A stretch of DNA of 64,000 bases from an uncultured Aquimarina sp. (GCF_947496855.1 NZ_CANMED010000008.1:76509-140508); one strand, 5' to 3'; shown: positions 1 through 14,247, counted from the stretch's first letter. Made by a program: numbers and translations. The notes: a model not told the origin generated them from the sequence alone.

Positions 1-1729
1 CTTTGTAGTCTTGTAAAAAACTGAGTTTTGCTCTTAGAATTTCGTCATTAGCACTCTCATTATCTCCGTATAACAACTTCATAACAAAGACATAATCTCC
101 AAATCTCTCGGAAAATCGACTTATCAGGTGATCCAGAAGCTCGTTACGTCTTTTATAAAAAACCTCACTACCGGTTTCTTCGCCTTTTACTTCGTTCATA
201 ATCCCTATAAGATCCTGCTCATAATTGCCGTGATCAGAAATTATAGTTTCTATATCGACGATATCCTCTACCCCTTGTGTATAATATGTTTGTTTAGCTT
301 TTAACTCCTCTGTTTCTGTAAGTAGGTCATCATCTATATATAATCTTTTAAGATTCTCATCTACAGACAATAAGCCTTTAACCTTCGATAAATGTTTAAA
401 GTAATTGGCCAATATCTGATCAAAAAACAATAAATATGCTTTTAATTGTTTTGCCTTTGCTTTTCGTGGTTTTTTTGCATTTCCAGGAAGCCCAAACGGA
501 GAAATTCCATACGTATCTGGAAAATCATTCTGAATTGTAGTGTAACTTTCTGGTGTTTGATAATTCCCCAGAGGAATTTCTACATCCTCAATGCTTACAC
601 TTTGTTGTTTTGCTTTTTCTTCTGCTTTAAGTTTGTCAATATTCTCAGCAACCCTGGATTCATTAATTCCTATCGGTAATAATCCTTTTGTAAAATTAAA
701 AGTACTTTTATCACAACGAGTTGGTTTATGCCATTCTTTAACACAGATATTCCAAGATCCTTCTAATCCTAAAGTGCCATCACAATTACCAATAGAAATA
801 TCCTTAATCACATGAACCCCCTCTATATTCATGATTAATTGTATAATATCCGAAAGTCGAACTTCTTTTCTAAGGTCTGCATTAATCAACTCTTCCTTAT
901 CTATAAATCCTCCTTTGATATTTTCAAAATCTACACAGGCTTTAGAAAATGGAATAGGTCCTTCAAAAATTTGATCTGTTGTATATCCCTTATCAAACAT
1001 CTGTTGTAAAGAATAGAAATTTACCGATGGAGAAAAGTAGTAATCTATTGCTTGGTAAATTAATGCTAAAATATACTCTTCATCCGCTCCAGGTTCTAAA
1101 TCTATATAAGCGCAAATGGCTATTGGATCTTCCTTTACAACCGTAACATCTACTATGTCTTCACACAAATTTCTATTTTGATGATATACATCTCTTACTA
1201 GGTTAATAATGCTTTCTTTATCTATAGCTTCTTCTTCCAGATCTAAAATAATATCATTAAGCCCTTTTAATTTAAGTGGAGCTGGCAATACCTGATTTTC
1301 ATCAATAACATTATATGACAGTTCTACAGGATGTATTTTGCAATTAATGTGTATGTACTGCTCGTGAGCTTTGATCCACGCATTTTTAACTCCCTGCACA
1401 TGAATAAACAAGTTTCGATAATCCAATGCTGTGACAGGTTTTGTAGGAAGAATATTTATTGCCGACAGAAACTGCTCGTGCATCTTACTTTTATTATTCT
1501 CTTTTGAAGCTAATAAATTCTGAATCGGCATCTCGATTCGTTGTGAAAGATCAGTAATCGCATATGACAACATTTCCAACATAGTCACTCCAGGATCATG
1601 AACATTATAATCCGTCCATAATTTGCTTCCGATCTTCTCGACATAATCAACACCTACATCTCTTAGATAATCATAATCCAGATCATCTCCTGTATTTACA
1701 TTTTTTGGTATGGAAATCGTTTCTTTCAT
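1..1729 (-). CDS. Large contractile-injection-system baseplate protein (Afp12/Cis12-like position); C-terminal part cut off by the window edge
   Basis: Absent from the ORF track because it has no stop in the window. I read every codon in the frame of the ATG at 1729..1727 down to nt 2 and found no stop (576 codons). N-terminus: MKETISIPKNVNTGDDLDYDYLRDVGVDYVEKIGSKLWTDYNVHDPGVTMLEMLSYAITDLSQRIE. From memory, the DPG-x-T-x-LE-x-L-x-Y block is typical of large phage-like baseplate proteins. It lies directly downstream of the Baseplate_J-like gene in the same operon. Confidence 0.7.
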   Translation of the reverse strand, partial: MKETISIPKNVNTGDDLDYDYLRDVGVDYVEKIGSKLWTDYNVHDPGVTMLEMLSYAITDLSQRIEMPIQNLLASKENNKSKMHEQFLSAINILPTKPVTALDYRNLFIHVQGVKNAWIKAHEQYIHINCKIHPVELSYNVIDENQVLPAPLKLKGLNDIILDLEEEAIDKESIINLVRDVYHQNRNLCEDIVDVTVVKEDPIAICAYIDLEPGADEEYILALIYQAIDYYFSPSVNFYSLQQMFDKGYTTDQIFEGPIPFSKACVDFENIKGGFIDKEELINADLRKEVRLSDIIQLIMNIEGVHVIKDISIGNCDGTLGLEGSWNICVKEWHKPTRCDKSTFNFTKGLLPIGINESRVAENIDKLKAEEKAKQQSVSIEDVEIPLGNYQTPESYTTIQNDFPDTYGISPFGLPGNAKKPRKAKAKQLKAYLLFFDQILANYFKHLSKVKGLLSVDENLKRLYIDDDLLTETEELKAKQTYYTQGVEDIVDIETIISDHGNYEQDLIGIMNEVKGEETGSEVFYKRRNELLDHLISRFSERFGDYVFVMKLLYGDNESANDEILRAKLSFLQDYK

Positions 1730-1830
1730 CTGGTTCTATTTATTTTTTTAGAGGTCAGATGGGATCTTTGACGATCAAAAAAATCTTTACTCCGTACCCT
1801 TAAATATTTTTTTAATCGTGTCGGTTTCAT
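1726..1830 (-). CDS. Candidate 34-aa very basic small ORF between the two large baseplate genes
   Basis: Hand translation gives MKPTRLKKYLRVRSKDFFDRQRSHLTSKKINRTR. Its ATG lies 10 nt after the TAA of the upstream gene. Its TGA overlaps the ATG of the downstream gene (ATGA). Its start context is a perfect 21-nt copy of the downstream gene's start context. Confidence 0.3.
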   Translation of the reverse strand: MKPTRLKKYLRVRSKDFFDRQRSHLTSKKINRTR

Positions 1831-1840
1831 CTGGTTCTAT

Positions 1841-4800
1841 TTATTGTCCTGGTGTTAATACTGTGCATCCTTCTTCTGGAGTTACTACTCCTATTTCATG
1901 GCTCGTGAATTTCACTGAAGTGAGAATTACCTTTGCATTACTTGGTTCTACTTTCTTTACCGATGAGAATATTTTTATTCCTGAATTGGTTACACCTGTT
2001 GCTTTTTGTAATTGAAAATCAGTTACATAATCTACATACTCCAATTTTTCTATATAGTTAATGACTACGCTTTCATGCAAGGTAATTCCAAAATCAATGA
2101 TCGAAGTTTCTTCAAAAGCCCAAGGAGCTAGTAATTTTGCTATATCTTTTTGCAATTGAGTTGAGTAGAAATTTTCATCTTTACCTTCGTAAAACTTCGC
2201 TTTCAAAATCACCTTTACTTCTTCATAAATAGGATTAATTACCTGCGCTGTCACATGAAGCGTATTTAGTTGATTGATGAAATTTTGTATTTCATTTCTC
2301 TTCGCCTTACTAATTCTAGGCTTATACGGGTCGTACACATTTTGGTTTATGATATTAGGGATGATCACCAGGGTTATATCTCCAAGAGATAAAAAAGAGG
2401 TTATCGATGTGTGATTTAAACAGTTTACCTTATAGATATCAGGAAACTCCTGTAAAACTAAATGTTCATAATCCCAGATAGTAATTGCCCGTTGTTTATG
2501 TCTTAATCGTTCGCTAATTCTTTTGTAAAACTCTTTATCCGTTTCCTCTGATTTCCCATCAAAAGATCCATACTCCTGAATAACTCCTTTTACATTTGCT
2601 AAACGTTCCACCAGTTTAGAAATAGTGCCAGCAGGAATACCATATTGTAGATGATTCAGGTTATTATTATTATTTTCAAATTGAGCCAATACTGCTTGAG
2701 ACTTGATATCAATCAATTGACTCACAGTATCAAAATCTCTTGGATTATCGACTTTTAGCCAAAAATATCCCGTTGGTAATTTTGTATTTTCCTTCGTAGC
2801 CTGTTTAGGAATTAAAAATTTTATAATTCCTGATCTTAAAAAATTATCCGTGTTATTAGAAATTATAAAATCTTGATTTAAGGATAACCATTCGTTATTG
2901 CATAGTATAGACCATTCTAGTTTTTCTCCTTCTACAAAATCATTAATTGTTTCTGGGTTTTCGCTTCCTTCTAATGTCTGGACAAGTAACGATACACTTT
3001 GAAGATTCTCTGCATTTTCTAAAGCAATAAACAAAGATCCATTTTGATATGCAGGTAGTAATTTTATCGCTCTATTTGTTGTTTTTAAAACTGAGTTATT
3101 TTTTAACTCCTCATTTTCTTCAGAAACTCCAAAAGGATGTTCATGAAATAATTTCACATTATTATCAGTCGTACTAGCTTGTGCATCGTATCCAACTTTG
3201 ATTGTTTCGATTTGTGGTGTATATGGTGTATTAGGAATAAGGGTATTAGATACATTTTCTTTGGACAACGCTACAGAAAAAATTCTAGGAAACAAATCAT
3301 GTAAAAATGATTTATTCAGAATGAGTTTTACAAATCCTTTTTTTACAGCGGCTGTAAATTTTTCTTTTGATGGTTGTTTACTTTGAAATATAGTTCCACC
3401 TTTTTGAAACTTTCTCATAGCCCGAAAGGGGAAATCAAAAAAATCTTCCTTATTAGCAGCTGTATCAGCAGTTTTTGTAATCTCTATACTACTTTTATTA
3501 CGATCAACGGTACTAAACAAAAAATGGTTTAAATCCTTAGTATCCCAAACCCCATTATCTAGAACCTGCACTTTTGTTGTAAAATAATCTTCGCTATCTA
3601 CTATAGCACTCAATGAATTAGGATTGCTAATAACTCCATTTGCATCAAGTGTTAATGTATATCTATCTTTACTGATTTTATCAATAAATTCTGTTCTATA
3701 AGCGATATAATTATCTACCAGATTTAGCTTATCCTTCCAATCAAAATCTATATTTATTTTAGTCCAGTTTTTATCTAATGCTTCTGGTAATCCTATAAAA
3801 AAATTAGATCCTCGTTTGGGTTGTGGTCCGAAAGGGTAGAATGGTTTAGAAGCATCCAAAACTCCTAAATCATTCTCGACTGTAATATCCTGTATTGCAT
3901 CAATTGATACAGCTATTGTTGCACTATTTATTACCGTAGAAGAAAATAGTTGTTGAGCTTTATAACCTTTATCATTTGTAATACTATTTCTTATCACAAA
4001 CCTAACAACTGGATCTGTCGTATTATATGGTTCAAGTAGCACTTTTTTGTCATAATTTATTATAGGATCCAAACCTTCGTTAAGTTCTACTACTATTTTT
4101 AATTCTCCAGATACAATTGAAGATTCACTCGTAATTATATCACCTTCAATCCATTCTGCTTCTCCACTAAAAAAAACTGCTACAGCATCTGTAAGATCTG
4201 AAGTGGTTAATTGAGAAGCGTTAAAGGGACTAAGACTAAAAGTAAACGTAACAGTTCTCTTTCCTTCTTTTAGCAATAATACCGGAGAAGATAATCCGAA
4301 TCCAATTTTTGCAAAAGAAAGGTCGGGGTAGGACCCAGAATCCTGTGTAGCTCCTGAAGTATCAGTGGGATACCCAAATGGCCACCATCTAACTTCGTCT
4401 TCAGGAAAATCTTCTCCGATTCCATCATAAGAATTCGCTACAAAGGCATTTTTTATTCCAACTCCTTCTTCGTGAAAAACATTTAATAATGAAGCTACTG
4501 AAGCTTTATTCACTATAATTTCTTCCTGAGTTTTATATATACGTTTTAGCCCATCATCATCTTTTCCTCCATCAAGTGAAGTTTTTTCGCTTATTTTAAC
4601 TTCAGTACCATTTTTAGCTAACTCAAATAATAAATGTACCTTATCTTCAACAGGAGCTTTGTTATCTAATTTCAAAACTTCTTTATAGTAAAAATCCAGA
4701 TGCTTTTTAGATAAACTATTTAATCGTTCTTGGGAAAATGAAGTCAATTTTAAAAAGGCTGCAAAAAGAGTGAGATGTGGTTCTATATTCTTTTCTACTA

Positions 4801-5083
4801 TATACGCTTCAGAAGGTTCTTCTAATTTTTTTAGTTTCTCTACAAAAGATAAAATTTCATCTTCTTTTACAAAGAAATTACTCCAATCTCCGGAAATAGT
4901 ATTTGTTTCAGTTTTAAAATAATGTACGCCTTCAGAAAACTTAAGAGCAAATCGCATCCAATCTTCTGTTGTTAGATCGTGCAGTTGAATATTTTTAGGG
5001 TCCAGTGCATCAATACAACGCTGATTTTGGGATGTTCCATTCCGCATCAATAATAGATCGTTATGTTCACAACTGTTACTCAT
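1841..5083 (-). CDS. eCIS large baseplate wedge protein, gp6/Baseplate_J-like (Afp11/Cis11-like)
   Basis: 1080-aa ORF. The C-terminal block KQRAITIWDYEHLVLQEFPDIYKVNC resembles the Baseplate_J core motif (R-A-V/I-T..DYE..). It lies directly downstream of the gp25 and PAAR genes. Confidence 0.75.
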   Translation of the reverse strand: MSNSCEHNDLLLMRNGTSQNQRCIDALDPKNIQLHDLTTEDWMRFALKFSEGVHYFKTETNTISGDWSNFFVKEDEILSFVEKLKKLEEPSEAYIVEKNIEPHLTLFAAFLKLTSFSQERLNSLSKKHLDFYYKEVLKLDNKAPVEDKVHLLFELAKNGTEVKISEKTSLDGGKDDDGLKRIYKTQEEIIVNKASVASLLNVFHEEGVGIKNAFVANSYDGIGEDFPEDEVRWWPFGYPTDTSGATQDSGSYPDLSFAKIGFGLSSPVLLLKEGKRTVTFTFSLSPFNASQLTTSDLTDAVAVFFSGEAEWIEGDIITSESSIVSGELKIVVELNEGLDPIINYDKKVLLEPYNTTDPVVRFVIRNSITNDKGYKAQQLFSSTVINSATIAVSIDAIQDITVENDLGVLDASKPFYPFGPQPKRGSNFFIGLPEALDKNWTKINIDFDWKDKLNLVDNYIAYRTEFIDKISKDRYTLTLDANGVISNPNSLSAIVDSEDYFTTKVQVLDNGVWDTKDLNHFLFSTVDRNKSSIEITKTADTAANKEDFFDFPFRAMRKFQKGGTIFQSKQPSKEKFTAAVKKGFVKLILNKSFLHDLFPRIFSVALSKENVSNTLIPNTPYTPQIETIKVGYDAQASTTDNNVKLFHEHPFGVSEENEELKNNSVLKTTNRAIKLLPAYQNGSLFIALENAENLQSVSLLVQTLEGSENPETINDFVEGEKLEWSILCNNEWLSLNQDFIISNNTDNFLRSGIIKFLIPKQATKENTKLPTGYFWLKVDNPRDFDTVSQLIDIKSQAVLAQFENNNNNLNHLQYGIPAGTISKLVERLANVKGVIQEYGSFDGKSEETDKEFYKRISERLRHKQRAITIWDYEHLVLQEFPDIYKVNCLNHTSITSFLSLGDITLVIIPNIINQNVYDPYKPRISKAKRNEIQNFINQLNTLHVTAQVINPIYEEVKVILKAKFYEGKDENFYSTQLQKDIAKLLAPWAFEETSIIDFGITLHESVVINYIEKLEYVDYVTDFQLQKATGVTNSGIKIFSSVKKVEPSNAKVILTSVKFTSHEIGVVTPEEGCTVLTPGQ

Positions 5084-5100
5084 CGTATTTTGTTTTTCTA

Positions 5101-5520
5101 TTATATGTTAGTTCCTTCTTCTTTGTAGAATGGGAATACCAAGTTATTTCTAGCATTGGTAGCTCTGATTCTATATTCAATTAGGATCAATAGTTCGCCA
5201 TCTAATTCGTTGGTTTGATCGATCTGTATTTTCTCTGCATCAATTCTAGGTTCGTAATACAGGATCGCATTCTTAATCAGTTCCTTCACAAAGGTTTTCA
5301 ACGTTAGGTTTAGGGGTTTGAACAATAGTTCATCTAGATTACACCCATAATTCGGTACCATCACACGTTCACCTAGTCGCGTAGAAAGTAAAATCTCCAA
5401 ACTACTTTTTATATCTACTTCATCGGATAACATTGCTGTTTTTCCAGATCCGCTTGCTTCTTTGTTAAACTCTGGTGGGAATCCCCAACCTGTTCCTAAA
5501 AATGATGTATTATTATCCAT
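5101..5520 (-). CDS. GPW/gp25-family baseplate wedge protein (Afp9/Cis9-like)
   Basis: 139 aa. The GTGWGFP N-terminus and IKSSLEILLSTRLGERVMVPNYGCNLDELLF match the gp25 signature (..SI.ILL.T..GER...P.FG..L). Confidence 0.9.
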   Translation of the reverse strand: MDNNTSFLGTGWGFPPEFNKEASGSGKTAMLSDEVDIKSSLEILLSTRLGERVMVPNYGCNLDELLFKPLNLTLKTFVKELIKNAILYYEPRIDAEKIQIDQTNELDGELLILIEYRIRATNARNNLVFPFYKEEGTNI

Positions 5521-5522
5521 AA

Positions 5523-5813
5523 TTAACCTCCTATTATTACTGTAGGTAACCCTAAAACAATAGTTCCTCCATGTGCGGTACTATCTCCCATTCTTGCTGC
5601 TGGCATTCCACCAATCATAACGGTTCCAGAACCTACAATAATAGTATCTGGTGGTCCTACACAGGTTGCCATATCGCCAACTCTTGCCGCTGGTAATCCT
5701 CCAATAAGTACTGTAGGTTCTCCTGCAGGAAGTATTGGACCTCCAACATGAGGTACTACACCTGTTACCATAGGACATACATGCATATCTGTTATTCTTG
5801 CTGCTGGTGGCAT
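5523..5813 (-). CDS. PAAR-domain spike tip protein (Afp10/Cis10-like)
   Basis: 96 aa with three PAAR-type motifs (PPAARITD, LPAARVGD, MPAARMGD). Gly/Pro rich. Confidence 0.9.
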   Translation of the reverse strand: MPPAARITDMHVCPMVTGVVPHVGGPILPAGEPTVLIGGLPAARVGDMATCVGPPDTIIVGSGTVMIGGMPAARMGDSTAHGGTIVLGLPTVIIGG

Positions 5814-5882
5814 ATTGTTTTGTTTATAGTTGTTAGCTCTAATTTACTATTTCATTATAGGGTATAGATGCGTATTAAAACA

Positions 5883-5907: not shown

Positions 5908-5946
5908 AATTAATTCTTTGTATACTCAATACTAGTCACTTAACAC

Positions 5947-7692
5947 TCAATTAATCTGAACTAAAGAACCTTTAAGCGTTGCTGTTGCGCTAGAGGACAT
6001 CTCGACTCCTGCTGATCCTTCTGCTTTAAACTGTGCATTGGCTGTAATATTTACGTTAGTGCCTTCGATATTTACATCTCCTGATGCCGTTAGGTTTATA
6101 TCGCTAGCACTTTCTATTGCTATTCCCGAATCATCTATGGTAATTACATTAGAATTATCGTCTTCTACTATTATAGATCCTGCATCTTCATCTAGTACTA
6201 TCTTCTTTCCTGCAGGTGTTTCGATACTTATTGATTTTTTATCATCATCAAACAGCACTTTCATCTCGCTTCTGGTAACAAATCCTTTTTCATGATTATC
6301 ATCACTTGCTGTAATTGGTGAAGGTTTAGCACTACTATGTAACATTCCTAATACCACTCCATCATTAGGGTCATCATTGATAAAGCCTATAATCACCTCA
6401 TCAGATATTTCAGGAAGAAAAAAAGCGCCTCTATTTTCTCCAGCGTCTAAAGAAGCTACACGGCACCAAACACCTTGCTCCTCATTATTTACTATTGGCA
6501 ATTGTACCAATATCCGATTCTCTCCATCCGGATCTTCTTCGAGCTGACTCACAATACCAATTTGCAATCCACACACTCCAGATAATAAACCAGATGCTGG
6601 CATCGGATTCGTATCATATGTTTCTGAAAACCACTTAGGGTTAATTCCAAACTGTGCATCTACTGTCCAATTTCCTTCAGAAATGTGATGGCTTATACCA
6701 GTAACATATACCTTCCCGTTAAAGCGATCTCCAACACCTTGTAGATTTAAAATTGTTCCTGGTTTTACAGCTGGAATACCCTGAAATTTAACTCTACCCC
6801 TAATTTTAGAAAGCTGCTGAAACATCCATTTAGCATCACTCCAATCTTGCATTTCTGTGGTAGAAAGTGCTCCACCGTGTCTTAATTCTAAGTTTTCTAG
6901 TGCTATTACCGTGGCTAAATCGGAAGGTTCTAAATTTCCGTTTAAGGATACAGCAGGATCAGCCGCTTCAATCTCAACAAGCTCTTGATCAGCATAATTC
7001 CAACTATACGCTGTTACCTTATCAATCTGATGTCTTGCGTCTATTTCTGCATCTAAATCCAACATAGTAGCACCAAAGGTGACTGTTTCTATTTCTGTAG
7101 TACCAAAATCAGGTTTTTTGATGCTTAATTTCCCATCATCCACGAAACAAAGTTTCCCATTTGCCTGTGCTCTACTCACTATAAAATCCCAATCAGAAAT
7201 ATTATACTGCACCAGTTCTTTATGTTCATAATTAGTAGCTTCTACATCCTTATCAATTCCGTAGGTATCAATAATCTCTTCAATAATTCCACTATCCTTA
7301 TTTTCATAGAAGTACTTACTTTTTCTACCGATTGTTAGTTTAACAGATTCATCTTTACATTCGAGAATTAGGTAAGAACCATTGGTTCTTATTCTTATAT
7401 TGTGTTTGATTACAACACCCTTAAAAACTGTTTCTTCATCGGAATGATATCCGGCTGTTATTTCGATTTCAGTACCTGGAATTAATAATTCTTCATTACT
7501 TAATTCAAAATCTTGCTTTGCCGGTTCCCCATCTATCAAAATAATCTTAGCTGTTGAGATTCTATTAACCTCTTTTTCTATAGCTATGGTCTTAACCTGA
7601 TATTTTTTTGACAGTTCCTCTCCTGCTAATAGAAGTTTATGAGTAACTAGATCTGCATTCTTCGAGGTTTGTATAACGCTACCTTCTGCCAT
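5947..7692 (-). CDS. VgrG-like spike (phage gpD + gp5 OB-fold + C-terminal beta-helix; Afp8/Cis8-like)
   Basis: 581 aa. The C-terminus has repetitive beta-helix-like segments (ISIETPAGKKIVLDEDAGSIIVEDDNSNVITIDDSGIAIESASDINLTASGDVNIEGTNVNITA). It lies between the LysM protein and PAAR. Confidence 0.85.
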   Translation of the reverse strand: MAEGSVIQTSKNADLVTHKLLLAGEELSKKYQVKTIAIEKEVNRISTAKIILIDGEPAKQDFELSNEELLIPGTEIEITAGYHSDEETVFKGVVIKHNIRIRTNGSYLILECKDESVKLTIGRKSKYFYENKDSGIIEEIIDTYGIDKDVEATNYEHKELVQYNISDWDFIVSRAQANGKLCFVDDGKLSIKKPDFGTTEIETVTFGATMLDLDAEIDARHQIDKVTAYSWNYADQELVEIEAADPAVSLNGNLEPSDLATVIALENLELRHGGALSTTEMQDWSDAKWMFQQLSKIRGRVKFQGIPAVKPGTILNLQGVGDRFNGKVYVTGISHHISEGNWTVDAQFGINPKWFSETYDTNPMPASGLLSGVCGLQIGIVSQLEEDPDGENRILVQLPIVNNEEQGVWCRVASLDAGENRGAFFLPEISDEVIIGFINDDPNDGVVLGMLHSSAKPSPITASDDNHEKGFVTRSEMKVLFDDDKKSISIETPAGKKIVLDEDAGSIIVEDDNSNVITIDDSGIAIESASDINLTASGDVNIEGTNVNITANAQFKAEGSAGVEMSSSATATLKGSLVQIN

Positions 7693-7694
7693 AA

Positions 7695-8420
7695 TTATGA
7701 TATTTTTTCTATAGGTGGAAAAAAGATTTCTTTTCCTACTTCGAGTTTTCTAAAAGATGACAGTTCATTTACCTTTGCTATTTCTAAATAATACTTTGAA
7801 TCTCCATAAATGCGATGCGACATTAGCGGCAATGTATCTCCTTCTTTTACCAAACGAATGTGAGTTAAATCTGGGGATTGATTATTCTCTTTAGCTACTC
7901 GTAAATCATCCTCTACAAATCCTTGAAACTTTGCCTTTGCAACTGCTCTTATTGGAGTACCGTCTGATTTAAAAAGTTTAAACTCAACACTCATTTCGGT
8001 CAGACTTCCTTTAAATAATAAGGTTCCCCAATAAATCATTACATAATTAGGTTTGTGCTCATCACCATTATAGTCAAGAATTACTTTTTTAAACTTTTCG
8101 ATATCCTCGATAACACCTTCGCCTTTATCCTTAAAGACTGTATCATCAGAGCTTTCATCTGGATTACTACCATAATGAATAATCACGCCAGTTCTATCAA
8201 AAAGAAATTCTAACGCTAGGTCTTCTGGAAGTTTTTTATTGAATCTAGGAGATAAATCACTCGTACCTGATGCTTGATCTTCATTCTGTTCGATCTTATA
8301 ATTAAAGGTATACTTCTCGGGATTTACCAAAGTGGTAAATTCTCCATCAGCAACCTCATTATTAAATTGAGGATCACTATAGGCTTTAATCTTTAGTTTT
8401 GTTAATTCTCCTGTACTCAT
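7695..8420 (-). CDS. Tube-initiator/baseplate hub protein with C-terminal LysM domain (Afp7/Cis7-like)
   Basis: 241 aa. The C-terminus HIRLVKEGDTLPLMSHRIYGDSKYYLEIAKVNELSSFRKLEVGKEIFFPP is LysM-like. There is a 2-nt gap to the VgrG gene. Confidence 0.7.
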   Translation of the reverse strand: MSTGELTKLKIKAYSDPQFNNEVADGEFTTLVNPEKYTFNYKIEQNEDQASGTSDLSPRFNKKLPEDLALEFLFDRTGVIIHYGSNPDESSDDTVFKDKGEGVIEDIEKFKKVILDYNGDEHKPNYVMIYWGTLLFKGSLTEMSVEFKLFKSDGTPIRAVAKAKFQGFVEDDLRVAKENNQSPDLTHIRLVKEGDTLPLMSHRIYGDSKYYLEIAKVNELSSFRKLEVGKEIFFPPIEKIS

Positions 8421-8422
8421 AA

Positions 8423-8590
8423 CTATCGTTCAGTTTGTTTAGCAATGATCTCCATAACTTGTTCCACACACTCAGCAATGATCACATCCTTATTACTTTC
8501 AGATTTTTTAGAATCATTACTAACGGATTTACTTTTTTCATTATCAACATTAATTTTGATATGAAGCTCTTTGATCTCTATTGCACCCAT
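8423..8590 (-). CDS. Small 55-aa eCIS protein in the Afp6/Pvc6 position (below the ORF-track size cut-off)
   Basis: Hand translation: MGAIEIKELHIKINVDNEKSKSVSNDSKKSESNKDVIIAECVEQVMEIIAKQTER. It fills the 172-nt gap between tube gene 2 and the LysM gene exactly, leaving 2-nt gaps on both sides. Confidence 0.5.
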   Translation of the reverse strand: MGAIEIKELHIKINVDNEKSKSVSNDSKKSESNKDVIIAECVEQVMEIIAKQTER

Positions 8591-8592
8591 TA

Positions 8593-9036
8593 TTATGTTA
8601 TGGTATTATAATAGTTGTATACTAATTCAATCGTTTCTATAACTACTTTGCTTTCTTCTGCATTAAAATCTGCTATTGACCATTTTATAGGATATGCATG
8701 CACAATGTTCCAAGATAGTAGTGGTTCGTGCTTTTCGTTAAGAAGTTTAACAATGAGATCTATAGGCTCAAAATCAAAATTCTCTACTGCTTTTTTACAC
8801 CAATCCACTACTTCTGAATCGACTAATAAACCTCTCTTTAAAACAAGATTAGGATACTTCGTCCTTACTGGAATTTTATGCTTGAATCTATTTTCTCCAC
8901 CTTCTGTAATTTCTTCAGTTTCAATATCAACAGTTAGTCCAGAGACGGATTGAAACTGATGATCTTTATCACCAGTAGACAAACCGGTAAACTCTACACT
9001 GAAGTGAAATCCAACTGGTGGATAATAGGTAGCCAT
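8593..9036 (-). CDS. Contractile tail tube protein, T4 gp19-like (second paralog, Afp5/Cis5-like position)
   Basis: 147 aa. FHFSVEFTGLS...FQSVSGLTVDIETEEITEGGENRF matches the tube signature (F.F.V...G...F.evSGL....e..eyreGG). Confidence 0.85.
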   Translation of the reverse strand: MATYYPPVGFHFSVEFTGLSTGDKDHQFQSVSGLTVDIETEEITEGGENRFKHKIPVRTKYPNLVLKRGLLVDSEVVDWCKKAVENFDFEPIDLIVKLLNEKHEPLLSWNIVHAYPIKWSIADFNAEESKVVIETIELVYNYYNTIT

Positions 9037-9482
9037 TATGAAGCAAGTTTAAGACTGTTAATTACAAATTCTGCGGATTCTATTGCGATCTCGTTTCCAT
9101 CGGCTTTTAAGTCAGTTGATTGGATTTTCAACAACCACGCATCTGCAGCTTCCCAGGTAACGATAGGTTCGTGTTTTTCATCTAGTAAACTGATCGTAAG
9201 ATCACTTCTGTATTGTTCTTCGCCTTCTTGAAAGAATACATTCTTTTTCCACATATCGTAGAACTGACCTTTTGTTGAGGCAAAGGTTCCTCTCTTAATT
9301 GAAATATTAGCAAACTTGGTCATTCCAGGTTGCTTTTTCTTGAAATAATCATTGTCCGCTCCGCCTCTGTATTCAATTACTTCGGTTTCAAAATCTAAAC
9401 CTGATACTTCGGTACAATTTAATTCGGTATCACCGCCAATTGTAACCTTAAAATGGAACTTTGGTAATGGATATTCTGCCAT
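9036..9482 (-). CDS. Contractile tail tube protein, T4 gp19-like (Afp1/Cis1-like)
   Basis: 148 aa containing FHFKVTIGGDTELNCTEVSGLDFETEVIEYRGGAD. Its stop overlaps the start of the next tube gene by 1 nt. Confidence 0.85.
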   Translation of the reverse strand: MAEYPLPKFHFKVTIGGDTELNCTEVSGLDFETEVIEYRGGADNDYFKKKQPGMTKFANISIKRGTFASTKGQFYDMWKKNVFFQEGEEQYRSDLTISLLDEKHEPIVTWEAADAWLLKIQSTDLKADGNEIAIESAEFVINSLKLAS

Positions 9483-9501
9483 GATTTCTATGTTTTAAAC
9501 T

Positions 9502-9537
9502 CCTCTGCCTTTCAGGCATCTCCCTAAAAAAGGGAGA
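9502..9537. repeat. Twin hairpins in the sheath-tube spacer (TGCCT-TTC-AGGCA and TCTCCCT-AAAAA-AGGGAGA)
   Basis: Read directly at 9506..9518 and 9519..9537, about 24 nt upstream (transcript sense) of the tube ATG at 9482. Confidence 0.6.
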
Positions 9538-9649
9538 AGTATTTTTTTTTAAGTTACTTGTTTGGCAAAAGAGAGATGTTATTATTAATGATTTACTTTA
9601 TGGTTATTTTATTTACTAACTACTAATATCTAGCTACTAAAAATCTACT

Positions 9650-11590
9650 CTAAGCTTCCTGCATTTTATGAGAGAATTTTAGAATAATAAACTCCGCTGG
9701 TCTTACCACTGCCATTCCGATTTCAATAATCATATTACCATCAAGAATATCATTAGCTGTCATCGTCTCTCCTAAACCAACATTAACGTAAAATGCTTTA
9801 TCAGGTGTTGGCCCGGCAAGTGCTCCTGCTCTCCATTGTAGTGTTAAGAAGTTATTAATCATTGCTTTTACACGAACCCAAGTATTCATATCATTTGGCT
9901 CAAAAACGAATTGCTCTGTTGCTTTCTTGATGGATTCTTCTGCCATATTAAAGAATCTTCTTACTGGAACATATCTCCATTCTTTATCATTACCTGCTAA
10001 AGTTCTTGCTCCCCAAACTAATGTTCCTTTTCCTGTAAAAGTTCTGATGGCATTTATTGATTTACCAGTTGTATGTACGTTTAGATCAAATTGATCTTCG
10101 TGAGATACCTGAACAGATGGTTTCGTTACATAATTAACACTCACATTAGCTGGTGCTTTCCATACTCCACGATCACTATCAACACGAGCGTACACTCCTG
10201 CCATTGCAGAACTTGGTGGTAGTTTTATAGGCAGCAAACCTATTTCTGCTTTGATTCTGTTATACAAAGCATTATCTGTTGGTTCCAGCGTATTTAATTT
10301 TACTGTTGTTGTTCCCCCACCAGAGGATGGTAAAGCAGCTATCAACGTAAACAATTCTCCTGAAGCAATTAAAGTATCTACTTTTGATTTCATTGAGTCC
10401 GCTGCTGCATCATCATTATGGACTCCTAAAACTCTTCGTAAAGACGGATCATTTGTCGTACTTGTTGAAATCTCATTTTGCACTGTAAGTTTAGAGTCGT
10501 CACTATTGAGTCTATCAATAGTTTTATTTAGATCCAACACTGTTTGCTCTAATTCATCCGTCATCCAAGTATCTAGCGCGTTAGCTTCTGTGTCAGCACT
10601 TCCGTCTGCTCTAGCTATGTCCAAACCGTTCTTTAATCCTGATTTTAGAGTTTGTATATAACTAATAATCTCATTTATTTTTGCTTGAATATTAGGAACT
10701 AATGCAATAGAAGCGGCATCATCTGCTGCGTTATTCACTTGTGTTTCTAAATCATCTAAGTCCAAAATATGGTCATCAATTTCTGTAGTATCGATTGCAT
10801 CTGCAATATCCTGAACTTCTTGTTGAACATCCGCTGGACCTGCTGCGCTTTGGGTTACATCAATTTGACTTTCATCATATGAATAATCTAAGATTGTTTC
10901 TAAGAACGGATAGTATACAGCACCATACTTTAAATAATCTTTTTCAGAATTAATACCATCACGAACTGCAGCGTCTGGATTTACATCATTATTTAGATCG
11001 TTGTTATACTCTGCATCAGAGTAGGTATCGATAATTGTAAACCTATCTTGTAAATCTTTACATTGTGCTAAGGCATTCTTATAAAGGTTATAAAAATCCC
11101 CATCACTTAAAAGCGATGTTGCATCTGGAAACACCAATAAAGTTGGTTCATCTTCTTTTCTAATTAAATCCAATCCTATATTTAATTTAGAAAATTCTAC
11201 AAGTGTAGCTGGAAATGAAAGATTAGCATCATACTGCCCTACAGATACTATATAGCAAGGACCCCCTCCATTTGCAAAATATATTTGCATAGCGTAGAAC
11301 ATCATAAACGGAGACTTATTCGCCGATGTTGGAGGCGTAGCTGATATCACTTCGTCTATTACTGAAACTGTGATATCAGTTTCTTTTTTTGCATTTCCAA
11401 AATAGGTTTCGTATTCCAATAAGGAAGTAATTCTTGTGGGAATATTGTCCAAATCTCCTTCGGCTTTTTTCATTGCTTTCTCTGTGTATCCTATAAAAGC
11501 CGGTATTGCTGTTTCTACTTGGGCTACCGAAGGAGGAAATTTTACAATCTCCTCGATATAGACCCCTGGTGTTTTGTACGTAGTTGCCAT
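9650..11590 (-). CDS. Contractile tail sheath protein (Afp2/Cis2-like) with a large internal insertion
   Basis: 646 aa. The N-terminus MATTYKTPGVYIEEI and the C-terminal GVWKAPANVSV...TLVWGARTLAG...WRYVPVRRFFNMAEESI are canonical sheath motifs. Confidence 0.9.
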   Translation of the reverse strand: MATTYKTPGVYIEEIVKFPPSVAQVETAIPAFIGYTEKAMKKAEGDLDNIPTRITSLLEYETYFGNAKKETDITVSVIDEVISATPPTSANKSPFMMFYAMQIYFANGGGPCYIVSVGQYDANLSFPATLVEFSKLNIGLDLIRKEDEPTLLVFPDATSLLSDGDFYNLYKNALAQCKDLQDRFTIIDTYSDAEYNNDLNNDVNPDAAVRDGINSEKDYLKYGAVYYPFLETILDYSYDESQIDVTQSAAGPADVQQEVQDIADAIDTTEIDDHILDLDDLETQVNNAADDAASIALVPNIQAKINEIISYIQTLKSGLKNGLDIARADGSADTEANALDTWMTDELEQTVLDLNKTIDRLNSDDSKLTVQNEISTSTTNDPSLRRVLGVHNDDAAADSMKSKVDTLIASGELFTLIAALPSSGGGTTTVKLNTLEPTDNALYNRIKAEIGLLPIKLPPSSAMAGVYARVDSDRGVWKAPANVSVNYVTKPSVQVSHEDQFDLNVHTTGKSINAIRTFTGKGTLVWGARTLAGNDKEWRYVPVRRFFNMAEESIKKATEQFVFEPNDMNTWVRVKAMINNFLTLQWRAGALAGPTPDKAFYVNVGLGETMTANDILDGNMIIEIGMAVVRPAEFIILKFSHKMQEA

Positions 11591-11605
11591 AATTTTAATT
11601 GTTTT

Positions 11606-12616
11606 TTAAATAAAAATTTCAGAATATGTTGTTGTTATATTTGTGTTTACGTCAGTAATTTGTTTTATAATGTTAACCGTAGGGTTAGGAAAAATGTATT
11701 TATCTATATCTGTGGGTAATGGACCAGAAAAATCGGCATCTGGATCAATTTCTATAAAACCATTTCTGGTTAAAGGTTTTACTGAAGAAGTTTCCAATTC
11801 GTTTTCATCCGATTTCTTAATATACTTCCAAATGGTTTTCCTGTTTTGGAAATGAAGTTTATATACTGGAGTGGGATCTAATAAGAAACTTTTAATATCA
11901 TTAGGATCTGTACTATCTATCTCTAGGACGTCCATATTATCATCACCAACCATTTGTAGTTCTATGATTCCTAATAATCCTCTACCTTGTTCTTTTTGGA
12001 TGTATTGATCTATAATTTTTTTTCCTTCGTCTGTAACCAGATCATCATTATCTAGTTCTGCAACAAGATCTAATCGTGTCGCTATTTCTGCTCTTATATT
12101 GTCTTGCTCCAAATCGAACCATAGCTGTCTTGTGCTTTCTTCTGTTAATAAAAAATCATCAGTAATGAGATCGTTTGAGGAACTTAGATGAATATATGAG
12201 TACGGATCTGCTTCAGTGGATGGTTGCCTATTAGAAAAATAATAAAGTCTATTATCAGTTTGTGTTAATTCAGTATAGTTATCAAATAAATGATCTTTTA
12301 TGTATACCAAAAAGGTAAGTTTTAGATCATTTTCTAAAAACCTATGCGATTTAAATTTATTATTTTCTTCAATCACACTACCTAATATTCTGAAACTACC
12401 CAGCCCCTTTCTTAAAACTAACTTATGATTTCTTAAGGTTGCCTGAGTTGCGTATGTTGGGATCACATTGATATAATCTAAAAAATTGTAGTTTTTTAGT
12501 TGTTCTTTTTTATCATCATCATTCATAGATATATAAGGAGACAATCCGTCATCCAGGAAATAAGAATGTAATAGCTCTATCTCAAACAATGTTTTATATA
12601 GTGTTCTAAATGCCAT
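11606..12616 (-). CDS. Hypothetical protein, eCIS-operon member of unknown role
   Basis: 336-aa ORF packed between the DUF4255 gene (1-nt gap) and the sheath gene (15-nt gap). I recognise no motif in it. Confidence 0.6.
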   Translation of the reverse strand: MAFRTLYKTLFEIELLHSYFLDDGLSPYISMNDDDKKEQLKNYNFLDYINVIPTYATQATLRNHKLVLRKGLGSFRILGSVIEENNKFKSHRFLENDLKLTFLVYIKDHLFDNYTELTQTDNRLYYFSNRQPSTEADPYSYIHLSSSNDLITDDFLLTEESTRQLWFDLEQDNIRAEIATRLDLVAELDNDDLVTDEGKKIIDQYIQKEQGRGLLGIIELQMVGDDNMDVLEIDSTDPNDIKSFLLDPTPVYKLHFQNRKTIWKYIKKSDENELETSSVKPLTRNGFIEIDPDADFSGPLPTDIDKYIFPNPTVNIIKQITDVNTNITTTYSEIFI

Positions 12617-12617
12617 T

Positions 12618-13208
12618 TTATTTATGATTTAGAGTTCCATTTATTTCGGTGATTAAACTTCCTTCCGATTGTGTAACATCTCTTTCGATTTCGAGAACAC
12701 TTGCTTTATATATTACAGAAGGATACTGTTTACCTCCAAGTGTACCCCAGATAAAATTCATCTCTTCGAAGGATGGACTAAAGAGTTCTACTGTAAATCG
12801 AAAGCCTCTAATCTTATCCATTCCATCTACTTCTCTATCAAAACTGGTATTACTTTGTGTAAAAATTCTTTTTGACTGGAAAAACTCTATGATTTTTGAT
12901 AAACTTTTTAGTGATTCTGTATAATCACTTCTATTAGCAGAAAACATTAGATATAGATTCAAATGAACCTTGTTATTTTTGTAGACAACTTTGGTTCCTT
13001 CTATTTGATGGTTGAGTATGTTTTTTAATGTAGCTTCCTCCTCTGTATGCAGTAATGATAGTACTACATTATTACTGGTGTTTGAATTTTCGTTAGTTTC
13101 TGATTCTATAAAGGCTATATTATCTAATGAAACCGGTTTTTCTTCGATTTCTATATTGAAGAAATTGTTGACCTCTTCCGTAATAATTTGTAATACCTCG
13201 AATATCAT
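12618..13208 (-). CDS. DUF4255/Pvc16_N-like protein (tail terminator/cap, Afp16/Cis16-like)
   Basis: 196 aa. From memory, the N-terminus MIFEVLQIITEEVNNFFNIEIEEKPVSLDNIAFIE resembles the DUF4255 N-terminal pattern (MI.e.L..i...LN.f.......V.L.NI). It is the first gene of the operon. Confidence 0.65.
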   Translation of the reverse strand: MIFEVLQIITEEVNNFFNIEIEEKPVSLDNIAFIESETNENSNTSNNVVLSLLHTEEEATLKNILNHQIEGTKVVYKNNKVHLNLYLMFSANRSDYTESLKSLSKIIEFFQSKRIFTQSNTSFDREVDGMDKIRGFRFTVELFSPSFEEMNFIWGTLGGKQYPSVIYKASVLEIERDVTQSEGSLITEINGTLNHK

Positions 13209-14223: not shown

Positions 14224-14247
14224 GAATTAAATAAACTTCACATAATC

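What the first reader, a model, noticed from the sequence alone, without database searches (positions are those of the whole stretch)
1..13208. Near-complete extracellular contractile injection system (eCIS) operon running off the window edge
Thirteen co-directional, almost gap-free genes lie on the minus strand. In order: DUF4255 cap, unknown 336-aa gene, sheath, tube, tube, 55-aa ORF, LysM hub, VgrG-like spike, PAAR, gp25, Baseplate_J-like 1080-aa protein, 34-codon ORF, and a second giant baseplate protein. This matches Afp/PVC numbering 16-?-2-1-5-6-7-8-10-9-11-x-12. The 64 kb contains no capsid, portal, terminase or lysis genes, and no T6SS membrane-complex or ClpV-like genes. That favours a tailocin-like injection device over a prophage or a canonical T6SS. 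The length-determining protein (Cis14), AAA+ ATPase (Cis15), tail fibres and payload genes are not visible. They should lie beyond coordinate 1, downstream in transcription. eCIS are an established family (Afp, PVC, MAC, AlgoCIS, Bacteroidales BIS, Amoebophilus T6SSiv), but targets and cargo differ by lineage, and this locus has several atypical features listed separately below.
Basis: partly seen in the sequence, partly recalled or inferred. Interest (0 to 1): 0.75.

Follow-up and report, generated by a model that had tools for sequence, protein, structure and literature searches.

The report
AlgoCIS-type contractile injection system, Aquimarina
This is the first 13 kb of a roughly 32 kb gene cluster in a marine Aquimarina bacterium that encodes a phage-tail-like "nano-syringe"; it matches the already solved AlgoCIS particle gene for gene, so it is a real but ordinary new member of a known family.

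Summary
All 13 minus-strand ORFs are at the stated coordinates, and 11 hit the expected profiles. These are Pvc16_N, sheath, two gp19 tubes, DUF5908, CIS_tube, VgrG, PAAR, gp25, Baseplate_J and a Cis12-like protein.

[quoted passage not shown] The "unknown" 336-aa gene is the cap adaptor Alg16B. The 55-aa ORF is the Alg6 plug. The 1080-aa protein is Alg11 with its spike-cage domain.

The 34-codon ORF is not a credible gene. It lies in a 101-nt spacer that 7 of 9 related loci lack, and its dN/dS is about 1.3.

A strain 99.7% identical to the window shows what lies beyond coordinate 1:
- the rest of Cis12 (937 aa);
- an Alg19-type tail fibre;
- the tape measure;
- two DUF4157 cargo proteins;
- an AAA ATPase;
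- then housekeeping genes, with no phage head genes.

The eCIS reading is therefore supported. "Near-complete" overstates it, because the window holds 12 of 23 genes. The "atypical" features are the norm for clade Ib.

One modest surprise: the outward-facing sheath domains are a swapped allele that does not track the rest of the operon.

The parts
12618..13208 (-). Cis16A cap protein (196 aa), first gene of the operon
   Evidence: Pfam Pvc16_N 2.2e-36. Best PDB match is the AlgoCIS cap 7adz_0A, 5.6e-66, residues 1-190 to 1-191. dN/dS 0.02 against A. rubra.
11606..12616 (-).
   Evidence: No Pfam, NCBIfam or PHROG hit. PDB match to the AlgoCIS cap adaptor 7adz_1A at 3.6e-42, and to Anabaena All3326 at 3.4e-5. 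Conserved in all 9 related loci; dN/dS 0.08.
9650..11590 (-). Single sheath protein Cis2 (646 aa) with outward domains III/IV
   Evidence: Phage_sheath_1C 1.4e-12. Matches AlgoCIS Alg2 7adz_2A at 5.8e-199. Mosaic: the N-terminal 40 aa and C-terminal ~210 aa are about 100% identical to relatives, the middle 10-50%.
9036..9482 (-). Inner tube protein Cis1 (148 aa)
   Evidence: Phage_T4_gp19 2.7e-34. 100% identical to A. rubra.
8593..9036 (-). Tube-initiator paralogue Cis5 (147 aa)
   Evidence: Phage_T4_gp19 2.2e-44. dN/dS 0.004-0.011. Position equals Alg5.
8423..8590 (-). Cis6 'plug' (55 aa)
   Evidence: DUF5908 3.1e-17. Matches the AlgoCIS inner protein Alg6 7aef_t at 1.1e-8. The plug role comes from PMC8894135.
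7695..8420 (-). Cis7 tube initiator with a C-terminal LysM-like domain (241 aa)
   Evidence: CIS_tube 7.5e-53. The LysM hit is sub-threshold in Pfam (15.9 bits, cut-off 20.9). The full length aligns to AlgoCIS Alg7, named 'LysM domain-containing protein' (7aeb_M), at 1.1e-92, residues 1-239 to 1-226.
5947..7692 (-). Cis8 VgrG-like spike (581 aa)
   Evidence: TIGR01646 3.6e-71 and Phage_base_V 1.5e-20. Matches AlgoCIS Alg8 7aef_q, also 581 aa, at 4.7e-240.
5523..5813 (-). Cis10 PAAR spike tip (96 aa)
   Evidence: PAAR_motif 2e-25. 100% identical to A. rubra.
5101..5520 (-). Cis9 gp25-like sheath initiator (139 aa)
   Evidence: GPW_gp25 3.3e-26.
1841..5083 (-). Cis11 baseplate wedge with spike-cage domain (1080 aa)
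   Evidence: Baseplate_J 1.6e-6 over residues 816-994 only. Matches AlgoCIS Alg11 7aeb_G at 1.3e-226, aligned 1-514 to 1-541 and 581-1062 to 545-1028. This covers cage domain IV, residues 278-643 of Alg11.
1726..1830 (-). 34-codon ORF inside a 101-nt spacer; probably not a gene
   Evidence: The spacer is flanked by a 21-nt direct repeat that duplicates the Cis12 ribosome-binding site and start codon. It is absent from 7 of 9 related loci. Against L002 there are 17.5 non-synonymous and 3.5 synonymous changes, dN/dS ~1.26. No family hit.
1..1729 (-). Cis12 baseplate wedge, first 576 of 937 codons (runs off the window)
   Evidence: Matches AlgoCIS Alg12 7aeb_A at 8.8e-135. 100% identical to residues 1-576 of WP_299260785.1 (937 aa, uncultured Aquimarina sp.).
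13209..13590 (.). Divergent intergenic region, presumed to hold the operon promoter
   Evidence: It is the only sizeable non-coding stretch upstream of Cis16A. The sigma-70 scan was uninformative, with fewer hits than in shuffles. The promoter was not located.

Best explanation
Window 1-13208 is the 5' structural half of a chromosomal, clade Ib (AlgoCIS-type) contractile injection system operon of an Aquimarina species (Flavobacteriaceae).

Proposed mechanism, by homology to the solved AlgoCIS particle:
1. The VgrG trimer, with the Cis6 plug in its cavity and PAAR on its tip, nucleates a baseplate.
2. Cis7 and Cis5 start the tube.
3. Six Cis11/Cis12 wedges, together with gp25, form the baseplate iris. 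The large insertion domain of Cis11 closes a cage around the spike.
4. Cis1 polymerises along a tape measure, and the single sheath protein polymerises around it.
5. Cap (Cis16A) plus cap adaptor (Cis16B) terminate the particle.

Genes just beyond the window supply the rest: an Alg19-type tail fibre, the tape measure, DUF4157/eCIS_core cargo proteins that would load into the tube lumen, and an AAA ATPase.

After release, the fibres would bind a target cell, the cage would open, and the sheath would contract and drive spike, tube and cargo into the target.

What is shown here: gene content, order, homology, purifying selection, and the downstream genes in a near-identical strain.

What is taken from the AlgoCIS papers: the role of each part.

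What is inferred: that particles are made and released, and that the target is probably another bacterium.
For: - Profile hits for 11 of the 13 ORFs.
- Of the nine window proteins searched against solved structures, all have their best match in an AlgoCIS chain, with Anabaena tCIS second and Afp/PVC far behind (the two tube proteins, PAAR and gp25 were not searched):
  - cap 5.6e-66
  - cap adaptor 3.6e-42
  - sheath 5.8e-199
  - plug 1.1e-8
  - Cis7 1.1e-92
  - VgrG 4.7e-240
  - Cis11 1.3e-226
  - Cis12 8.8e-135
- Gene order is identical to alg16A-16B-2-1-5-6-7-8-10-9-11-12 (PMC8894135).
- The cluster is conserved in 9 GTDB species representatives, 8 Aquimarina and 1 Hwangdonia.
- dN/dS is 0.00-0.09 for all structural genes except the sheath.
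- A strain 99.7% identical over 17,898 nt without gaps continues with an Alg19-like fibre. The A. rubra orthologue of that fibre matches PDB 9wt0_a at 4e-152. Then come CIS_TMP at 1.8e-98, two eCIS_core proteins at about 1e-31, an AAA ATPase at 2e-27, and then DUF2891.
- The window's Cis12 fragment is 100% identical to a 937-aa RefSeq protein on a 453,151-bp contig. That same contig also encodes a DUF4157 protein and the 222-aa protein.
- No head, lysis, integrase or T6SS genes in the 64 kb, and no tRNA.
Against: - Nothing here shows expression, particle assembly or release.
- Clade Ib also contains cell-anchored systems (T6SSiv) and thylakoid-anchored systems (tCIS) built from homologous genes. 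An Alg19 homologue also exists in tCIS (All3314, 1.6e-47). Fibre presence therefore does not prove extracellular action.
- The downstream half was read in a 99.7%-identical strain, not in the window's own contig, which the encoding index does not hold.
- The promoter was not found.
- The target organism is a guess.
Confidence: 0.85

Rival explanations
1. Same clade Ib hardware, but not deployed extracellularly. The particles would stay inside the producer. They would be anchored to the inner membrane and fire outward, as in the Amoebophilus T6SSiv. Alternatively they would be held in the cytoplasm or on a membrane and act on cell lysis or stress, as in Anabaena tCIS or Streptomyces CIS.
For: Clade Ib mixes eCIS and T6SS-like modes among close relatives (PMC8894135). 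The second-best structural matches for every protein are to Anabaena tCIS chains. A 162-aa protein with a faint MlaE-like (membrane permease) hit, and OmpA- or PG_binding-domain proteins, sit in the downstream half of the cluster in relatives.
Against: Every protein scores far higher to AlgoCIS than to tCIS: 666 against 531 bits for the sheath, 758 against 413 for Cis11, 454 against 313 for Cis12. AlgoCIS has been shown experimentally to be released. The Alg19-type fibre, which mediates AlgoCIS binding to target bacteria (PMC13314943), is conserved.
Confidence: 0.11
2. Tail module of a prophage, or an R-type tailocin derived from a recent prophage.
For: Sheath, tube, gp25, Baseplate_J and VgrG families are shared with myovirus tails. 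PHROG baseplate-wedge hits exist for Cis11 and Cis12.
Against: No capsid, portal, terminase, integrase, holin or endolysin gene was found in the 64 kb window, nor in the 18 kb to the left in the near-identical strain. The eCIS hallmarks Pvc16_N, CIS_TMP, DUF5908, eCIS_core and an AAA ATPase are present. A. brevivitae carries its cluster in the same chromosomal neighbourhood. GC content is no different from the flanks. The R-pyocin sheath matches only at 7.5e-5.
Confidence: 0.01
3. Canonical type VI secretion system, for example the Bacteroidota T6SSiii.
For: VgrG, PAAR and gp25 (TssE-like) families are shared with T6SS.
Against: The sheath is a single phage-type protein, not TssB/TssC. The tube is gp19-type, not Hcp. 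No ClpV, TssK/F/G or membrane-complex genes occur in the window. A tape measure and a cap of the Afp16 type are present.
Confidence: 0.01
4. A decaying, non-functional remnant of an eCIS.
For: Nothing positive. Only expression data are lacking.
Against: All reading frames are intact. dN/dS is 0.00-0.09. The full 23-gene set is present in the near-identical strain. The cluster is conserved across the genus.
Confidence: 0.02

Closest known systems
AlgoCIS of Algoriphagus machipongonensis PR1 (clade Ib eCIS; Xu et al. 2022, PMC8894135; firing mechanism 2026, PMC13314943)
   Same: Gene order is identical for all 12 real genes in the window, and for fibre, tape measure and DUF4157 cargo downstream. 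The best PDB match of all nine window proteins searched is an AlgoCIS chain. Both have the short single-domain cap (196 against 197 aa), cap adaptor, single four-domain sheath, Alg6 plug, a 581-aa VgrG, Alg11 with a cage domain, a ~935-aa Alg12, and an Alg19-type PKD fibre.
   Different: - The host is from a different class (Flavobacteriia against Cytophagia).
- The cap adaptor is longer (336 against 284 aa).
- The sheath is shorter (646 against 692 aa), with divergent outer domains.
- The fibre is shorter (1279 against 1443 aa).
- The cargo set differs. In the near-identical strain it is a 444-aa and a 1394-aa eCIS_core protein, the latter with a sub-threshold nuclease domain and an ankyrin-repeat neighbour.
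- A 162-aa gene sits between tape measure and cargo. Whether the AlgoCIS cluster has a counterpart was not checked.
Anabaena sp. PCC 7120 thylakoid-anchored CIS (tCIS, All3314-All3327; PDB 7b5h/7b5i)
   Same: It gives the second-best structural match for every component, including the cap adaptor (All3326), plug (Asl3322), Cis11, Cis12 and the fibre-like All3314.
   Different: Scores are much lower. Its sheath is shorter (484 aa), while its Cis11 (1231 aa) and Cis12 (1335 aa) are longer. From my own recollection of the literature, not checked here, tCIS is anchored to thylakoid membranes. Aquimarina has no thylakoids.
MACs of Pseudoalteromonas luteoviolacea and T6SSiv of Ca. Amoebophilus asiaticus (clade Ib)
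   Same: According to PMC8894135, both share the plug, the cap adaptor and the Alg11-type cage extension.
   Different: MACs form arrays of about 100 tails joined by a different type of fibre and lack an Alg19 homologue. T6SSiv is anchored to the inner membrane. Neither was compared directly here, because no sequences were on hand.
Afp (Serratia entomophila) and PVC (Photorhabdus), clade Ia eCIS
   Different: They have three sheath paralogues, a two-domain cap of about 295 aa with no cap adaptor, much smaller Cis11 proteins (607 and 728 aa) without a cage, and adenovirus-like Afp13 fibres. Matches are far weaker, for example 1e-30 to 1e-25 for Cis11.
Catalogued Aquimarina eCIS loci (Danov et al. 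2024, PMC11297309; receptor-binding-domain catalogue 2026, PMC12923769)
   Same: eCIS clusters in Aquimarina atlantica, Aquimarina sp. AU58 and AU119 are already listed in these catalogues. An A. atlantica TIR toxin (EAT15) was shown to be cytotoxic.
   Different: Those studies concern toxins and fibres of other strains. This particular locus and its sheath allele are not described in the papers held here.

Membership tests
eCIS / Afp-PVC-like CIS (class I) | Phage-type contractile sheath plus gp19-type tube genes | tested here: met
   Phage_sheath_1C 1.4e-12 and two Phage_T4_gp19 hits at 3e-34 and 2e-44. PDB matches to the Alg2, Afp2-4 and Pvc2-4 sheaths.
eCIS / Afp-PVC-like CIS (class I) | Spike complex and baseplate: Cis7, VgrG, PAAR, gp25, Cis11 (Baseplate_J), Cis12 | tested here: met
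   CIS_tube 7.5e-53, vgr_GE 3.6e-71, PAAR 2e-25, gp25 3.3e-26, Baseplate_J 1.6e-6 with Alg11 1.3e-226, and Alg12 8.8e-135.
eCIS / Afp-PVC-like CIS (class I) | Afp16-type cap (Pvc16_N / DUF4255) | tested here: met
   Pvc16_N 2.2e-36. Alg16A 5.6e-66.
eCIS / Afp-PVC-like CIS (class I) | Tape measure (Cis14), AAA+ ATPase (Cis15) and an eCIS_core/DUF4157 gene in the same cluster | tested here: met
   These are not in the window. They are present directly downstream in a strain that is 99.7% identical over the shared 17.9 kb: CIS_TMP 1.8e-98, AAA 2.1e-27, and eCIS_core 6e-31 and 9e-32. They are also present in A. rubra and a second Aquimarina. The window's own contig could not be read.
Clade Ib, AlgoCIS-type | Cap adaptor (Alg16B homologue) encoded between cap and sheath | tested here: met
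   The 336-aa product matches 7adz_1A at 3.6e-42.
Clade Ib, AlgoCIS-type | Small plug protein (Alg6 / DUF5908) between tube and Cis7 | tested here: met
   DUF5908 3.1e-17. Alg6 1.1e-8.
Clade Ib, AlgoCIS-type | Cis11 carries the large insertion (domain IV) that forms the spike cage | tested here: met
   Query 1-514 aligns to Alg11 1-541 and query 581-1062 to Alg11 545-1028, spanning Alg11 residues 278-643. That a cage actually forms was not tested.
Clade Ib, AlgoCIS-type | One sheath protein with extra outward domains III/IV, rather than three paralogues | tested here: met
   There is a single 646-aa sheath gene. It aligns to the 692-aa Alg2 in two stretches. The middle ~400 residues are the variable part.
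Clade Ib, AlgoCIS-type | Alg19-type (TssK-like shoulder, Ig/PKD-rich) tail fibre after Cis12 | tested here: met
   This lies outside the window. The 1274-aa A. rubra orthologue matches 9wt0_a at 4.1e-152. A 1279-aa gene occupies the same position in the 99.7%-identical strain.
Extracellular mode of action (eCIS in the strict sense) | Particles are not membrane-anchored and are released into the medium | not testable with these tools
   This needs sheath preparations, EM or cryo-ET of an Aquimarina culture. It has been shown for AlgoCIS only (PMC8894135).
Prophage or R-type tailocin | Adjacent capsid, portal, terminase, lysis or integrase genes | tested here: not met
   None was found in the 64-kb window, nor in the 18 kb to the left in the near-identical strain.
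Canonical T6SS | TssB/TssC sheath, Hcp tube, ClpV, TssK/F/G and a membrane complex | tested here: not met
   No such Pfam or NCBIfam hits in any ORF of the window. The only AAA-like gene in the window is a ComM/Mg-chelatase-type housekeeping gene at 21928-23466.

The most novel reading that the evidence does not exclude
The outward-facing sheath domains III/IV behave as an exchangeable surface cassette among Flavobacteriaceae AlgoCIS-type systems. The cap and cap-adaptor genes upstream also have a separate history in this strain and may belong to the same exchanged block.

The window's sheath is 79% identical to that of A. brevivitae. Yet A. brevivitae's other eCIS proteins are only 40-93% identical to the window's. 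Conversely, the window's sheath is only 56% identical to that of A. rubra, whose other proteins are 87-100% identical. About 770 nt of the gene cannot be aligned at the DNA level to A. rubra, and that stretch is flanked by sequence that is nearly identical at the protein level.

If this reflects diversifying selection or recombination on the particle surface, it would be a third evolutionary hotspot. The two named for AlgoCIS are the gp7-like part of Alg12 and the Alg11 cage. It would also imply that the sheath surface interacts with something, such as the target, the producer envelope, other particles or a predator.
Probability: 0.35. Interest if true: 0.45.

Novelty: new member of a known kind. 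Interest (0 to 1): 0.25.

Why it matters
The value is mainly in annotation. The cluster's genes carry generic names in the source databases where these were seen: 'hypothetical protein' for Cis12 and 'phage tail sheath' for the sheath. Each gene in the window can now be assigned a specific structural role by one-to-one correspondence with a solved particle.

The locus shows that the AlgoCIS architecture (cap adaptor, plug, spike cage, TssK-like fibre) is a conserved chromosomal resident of Aquimarina. It also links this strain to a payload set in a near-identical strain that includes a candidate nuclease with an ankyrin-repeat partner.

Aquimarina species are associated with sponges, algae and crustacean shell disease, so an injection system there is ecologically plausible. 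AlgoCIS-type particles are also being engineered for protein delivery.

None of this changes what is known about eCIS. The only lead beyond routine is the swapped allele of the sheath surface domains.

Tried and rejected
- **Direct extension of the window's own contig failed.** Cis11, the DUF4157 protein P0013 and the Cis12 protein P0364 are not on record in the encoding index. I used a 99.7%-identical strain instead.
- **The 34-codon ORF as a real small gene was rejected.** It is absent in most relatives, its dN/dS is ~1.26, and it has no family hit.
- **The 101-nt spacer as a multi-copy mobile element was rejected.** There is no other copy in the window or in any locus except the orthologous site in L002.
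- **The LysM call for Cis7 by Pfam is only sub-threshold** (E 0.013, 15.9 bits against a cut-off of 20.9). It is accepted on full-length homology to Alg7.
- **The sigma-70 promoter scan was uninformative.** It found 50 hits against 64 expected from shuffles. Bacteroidota use a different consensus, and the promoter was not located.
- **No RNA genes were found.** Rfam gave no hits at gathering threshold and ARAGORN found no tRNA, so there is no RNA element or tRNA integration site.
- **PHROGs scan of the window's family-less proteins** found no phage head or other phage hits.
- **Prophage, canonical T6SS and pseudogenised remnant** were considered and rejected. See the rival explanations.
- **Comparison with dbeCIS and with Amoebophilus T6SSiv proteins** was not possible with the tools and caps available.

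Full report
**1. What is in the sequence**

They are 12618-13208, 11606-12616, 9650-11590, 9036-9482, 8593-9036, 8423-8590, 7695-8420, 5947-7692, 5523-5813, 5101-5520, 1841-5083 and 1726-1830, plus an ORF that starts at 1729 and runs off the window. Intergenic distances are -4 to 17 nt, apart from 167 nt between sheath and tube and 133 nt between VgrG and PAAR.

| Gene | Family | E-value |
|---|---|---|
| 12618-13208 | Pvc16_N | 2e-36 |
| 9650-11590 | Phage_sheath_1C | 1e-12 |
| 9036-9482, 8593-9036 | Phage_T4_gp19 | 3e-34, 2e-44 |
| 8423-8590 | DUF5908 | 3e-17 |
| 7695-8420 | CIS_tube | 7e-53 |
| 5947-7692 | vgr_GE | 4e-71 |
| 5523-5813 | PAAR_motif | 2e-25 |
| 5101-5520 | GPW_gp25 | 3e-26 |
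| 1841-5083 | Baseplate_J (C-terminal third only) | 1.6e-6 |

The rest of the window was scanned ORF by ORF and is ordinary chromosome. It holds an M16 peptidase, a protein sorted by the type IX secretion system (T9SS), ComM, aspartokinase, an M13 peptidase, a RES-Xre toxin-antitoxin pair, molybdenum-cofactor biosynthesis genes, a hybrid kinase, an RHS toxin, and nitrate assimilation and transport genes. There are no capsid, portal, terminase, lysis, integrase or T6SS genes, no tRNA and no Rfam hit. GC content of the cluster (31-36%) matches the flanks.

**2. What it is**

Nine window proteins (cap, cap adaptor, sheath, plug, Cis7, VgrG, Cis11, the Cis12 fragment) were compared with the sequences of solved structures; the two tube proteins, PAAR and gp25 were not. 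All nine have their best match in the AlgoCIS particle of Algoriphagus machipongonensis:

| Window protein | AlgoCIS counterpart | E-value |
|---|---|---|
| cap | Alg16A | 5.6e-66 |
| 'unknown' 336 aa | cap adaptor Alg16B | 3.6e-42 |
| sheath | Alg2 | 5.8e-199 |
| 55 aa | plug Alg6 | 1.1e-8 |
| Cis7 | Alg7, deposited as 'LysM domain-containing protein' | 1.1e-92 |
| VgrG | Alg8 (both 581 aa) | 4.7e-240 |
| 1080 aa | Alg11 | 1.3e-226 |
| truncated ORF | Alg12 | 8.8e-135 |

The second-best match is always the Anabaena thylakoid-anchored CIS (tCIS). Afp and PVC follow far behind.

The Cis11 alignment covers Alg11 residues 1-541 and 545-1028. It therefore includes domain IV (278-643), which forms the 'spike cage' in AlgoCIS (PMC8894135).

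The AlgoCIS paper describes the cluster as 18 genes labelled after their Afp homologues. It has a short cap (197 aa), a cap adaptor, a single four-domain sheath, a plug, an Alg11 cage, an Alg19 fibre and two DUF4157 cargo proteins. The window reproduces the order 16A-16B-2-1-5-6-7-8-10-9-11-12 exactly.

**3. Source and the missing half**

A scan of GTDB representative genomes with Cis11 found nine loci, eight in Aquimarina and one in Hwangdonia, all with the same gene order.

The window's sheath is 100% identical to a RefSeq protein of an uncultured Aquimarina sp.. Its Cis12 fragment is 100% identical to residues 1-576 of WP_299260785.1, a 937-aa protein on a 453,151-bp contig. That contig is not in the look-up index.

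A second assembly is available: GCA_947496745.1, contig CANMDZ010000011.1. It is 99.76% identical to window 1-17898 with no gaps. In that strain the operon continues as follows:
- Cis12, 937 aa
- a 1279-aa PKD protein; its A. rubra orthologue matches the Alg19 fibre at 4e-152
- CIS_TMP, 550 aa
- a 162-aa protein
- an eCIS_core (DUF4157) protein, 444 aa
- 144-aa and 222-aa proteins
- an eCIS_core protein of 1394 aa with a sub-threshold Endonuclea_NS_2 match (24.9 bits, cut-off 27)
- an ankyrin-repeat protein, 230 aa
- a 432-aa protein
- a PG_binding_1 protein, 272 aa
- an AAA ATPase, 447 aa
- then an unrelated DUF2891 gene

A. rubra and another Aquimarina show the same layout with different cargo.

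The DUF4157 and 222-aa proteins of the 453-kb contig cluster at 90% identity or more with those of the near-identical strain. The source genome therefore has them too.

The whole cluster is about 31.7 kb and 23 genes. The window carries 11 complete genes plus 1 truncated gene.

**4. The 34-codon ORF**

Alignment of the Cis11-Cis12 junction shows that the ORF lies in a 101-nt spacer. The two closest species, A. rubra and L001, lack the spacer and have a 10-nt gap instead. The spacer is bounded by a 21-nt direct repeat (AATAAATAGAACCAGATGAAA). That repeat duplicates the ribosome-binding site and start codon of Cis12, which is why the spacer opens with an ATG.

Only L002 has the orthologous spacer. 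The ORF stays open there, but with 17.5 non-synonymous and 3.5 synonymous differences, a dN/dS of about 1.26. It has no family hit and no other copy anywhere. I read it as a chance ORF in a variable spacer, not a component.

**5. Is the cluster functional?**

dN/dS against A. rubra and L002 is 0.00-0.09 for the cap, cap adaptor, tubes, plug, Cis7, VgrG, PAAR, gp25 and Cis11. All frames are intact.

The A. brevivitae cluster sits beside the same housekeeping genes: RES-Xre, M13 peptidase, aspartokinase and ComM. The system is therefore an old chromosomal resident of the genus, not a recent island.

**6. The one unusual thing**

The sheath is only 54-57% identical to all eight Aquimarina loci from the GTDB scan, while every other protein is 87-100% identical to the closest of them.

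The protein is a mosaic. The first 40 and last ~210 residues are 97-100% identical to relatives. Residues ~40-440 are 10-50% identical. These correspond to the outward domains III/IV of Alg2. At the DNA level, window 10234-11006 cannot be aligned to A. rubra.

There are three allele types among the eight Aquimarina loci of the GTDB scan, and Hwangdonia lacks most of the region.

The window's allele is closest to A. brevivitae at 79%. It is 66-71% identical to sheaths from Tenacibaculum, Mariniphaga and Sungkyunkwania. Yet A. brevivitae's other proteins are only 40-93% identical to the window's.

Synonymous divergence of the cap and cap-adaptor genes from A. rubra (dS 1.4 and 0.8) is also two to five times that of the downstream genes (0.24-0.51). 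The 5' block therefore has a separate history. Recombination or long-lived allelic types of the particle surface would explain this. I did not test it formally.

**7. Mechanism**

The model is taken from the AlgoCIS structures and genetics (PMC8894135, PMC13314943).

Assembly:
- The plug-VgrG-PAAR spike and Cis7/Cis5 nucleate assembly.
- Cis11/Cis12 wedges and gp25 form the baseplate iris and cage.
- Tube and sheath grow along the tape measure.
- Cap and cap adaptor terminate the particle.
- DUF4157 cargo fills the tube lumen.

Firing:
- Alg19 fibres bind target bacteria.
- The cage opens.
- The sheath contracts.

Applying this model to the Aquimarina system is an inference from homology. The candidate nuclease with an adjacent ankyrin protein looks like a toxin with an immunity partner. 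Together with AlgoCIS binding to Echinicola pacifica, this makes a bacterial target the best guess, at low confidence. Whether particles are released or stay anchored in the cell cannot be told from sequence, because clade Ib contains both modes.

**8. Comparison and novelty**

This is a new member of a known kind. eCIS clusters of other Aquimarina strains already appear in published catalogues, and one A. atlantica toxin has been tested (PMC11297309 and PMC12923769). The proteins are in RefSeq under generic names.

The claims 'near-complete' and 'atypical' are not. I score interest at 0.25, with the sheath surface cassette as the only lead worth a follow-up.

Noticed in passing
window 10234-11470 (sheath codons ~40-440): The sheath is a mosaic. 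Its outward domains III/IV are a different allele from those of the closest relatives (10-50% identity, with ~770 nt unalignable), while the ends of the protein are ~100% identical. The allele is closest to A. brevivitae (79%), whose other eCIS proteins are much more distant.
   Followed up: partly
window 11006-13700 (cap, cap adaptor, 5' sheath, upstream spacer): This block is ~80% identical to A. rubra at the nucleotide level, against ~90% for the rest of the operon. Its dS is 0.8-1.4 against 0.24-0.51 downstream. The 5' end of the operon has a separate history, possibly through recombination.
   Followed up: partly
window 1726-1845: A 101-nt spacer between Cis11 and Cis12 is bounded by a 21-nt direct repeat that duplicates the Cis12 ribosome-binding site and start codon. 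It is absent from the closest species and present in L002. Loss or gain through the repeats is likely.
   Followed up: yes
window 17899-21926: A ~4 kb segment encodes a 1256-aa Sortilin/Ig_7/Por_Secre_tail (T9SS-sorted) protein. It is absent from the otherwise 99.7%-identical strain. It is flanked by an imperfect ~37-nt direct repeat (TTTACCCCAACCAACCAT..CGATCCAAACTACGATA).
   Followed up: partly
window 5814-5946 and 9483-9649: The two large intergenic gaps each hold a GC-rich hairpin, at 5883-5907 and 9519-9537. The VgrG-PAAR spacer varies in length between species (133 nt here, 319 nt in A. rubra). These may be internal attenuators or RNA-stability elements. Not tested.
   Followed up: no
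window 13591-14223 (+ strand): A MORN_2-repeat protein (210 aa from the first in-frame GTG; called as 189 aa in the near-identical strain) is transcribed divergently from the operon. It is conserved at this position in all eight Aquimarina loci of the GTDB scan and in the near-identical strain, but not in Hwangdonia or A. brevivitae. Any link to the injection system is unknown.
   Followed up: no
L014 10722-15611 (near-identical strain, outside the window): A 1394-aa eCIS_core protein has a sub-threshold C-terminal Endonuclea_NS_2 match. It is followed by a 230-aa ankyrin-repeat protein. Together they are a candidate nuclease cargo with an immunity partner. Cargo genes differ between Aquimarina species.
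   Followed up: partly
window 28572-31865: A RES toxin and Xre-family antitoxin pair (28572-29512) lies next to a 777-aa protein with a weak patatin-like phospholipase match (29532-31865).
   Followed up: no
window 42551-51545: A 1287-aa DUF6443-RHS protein with a Peptidase_M23 domain (43989-47852) is preceded by a 1228-aa protein with no Pfam or PHROG family hit (47859-51545). It is followed by three small ORFs, two of them without a family hit. This looks like a polymorphic-toxin locus unrelated to the injection system.
   Followed up: no
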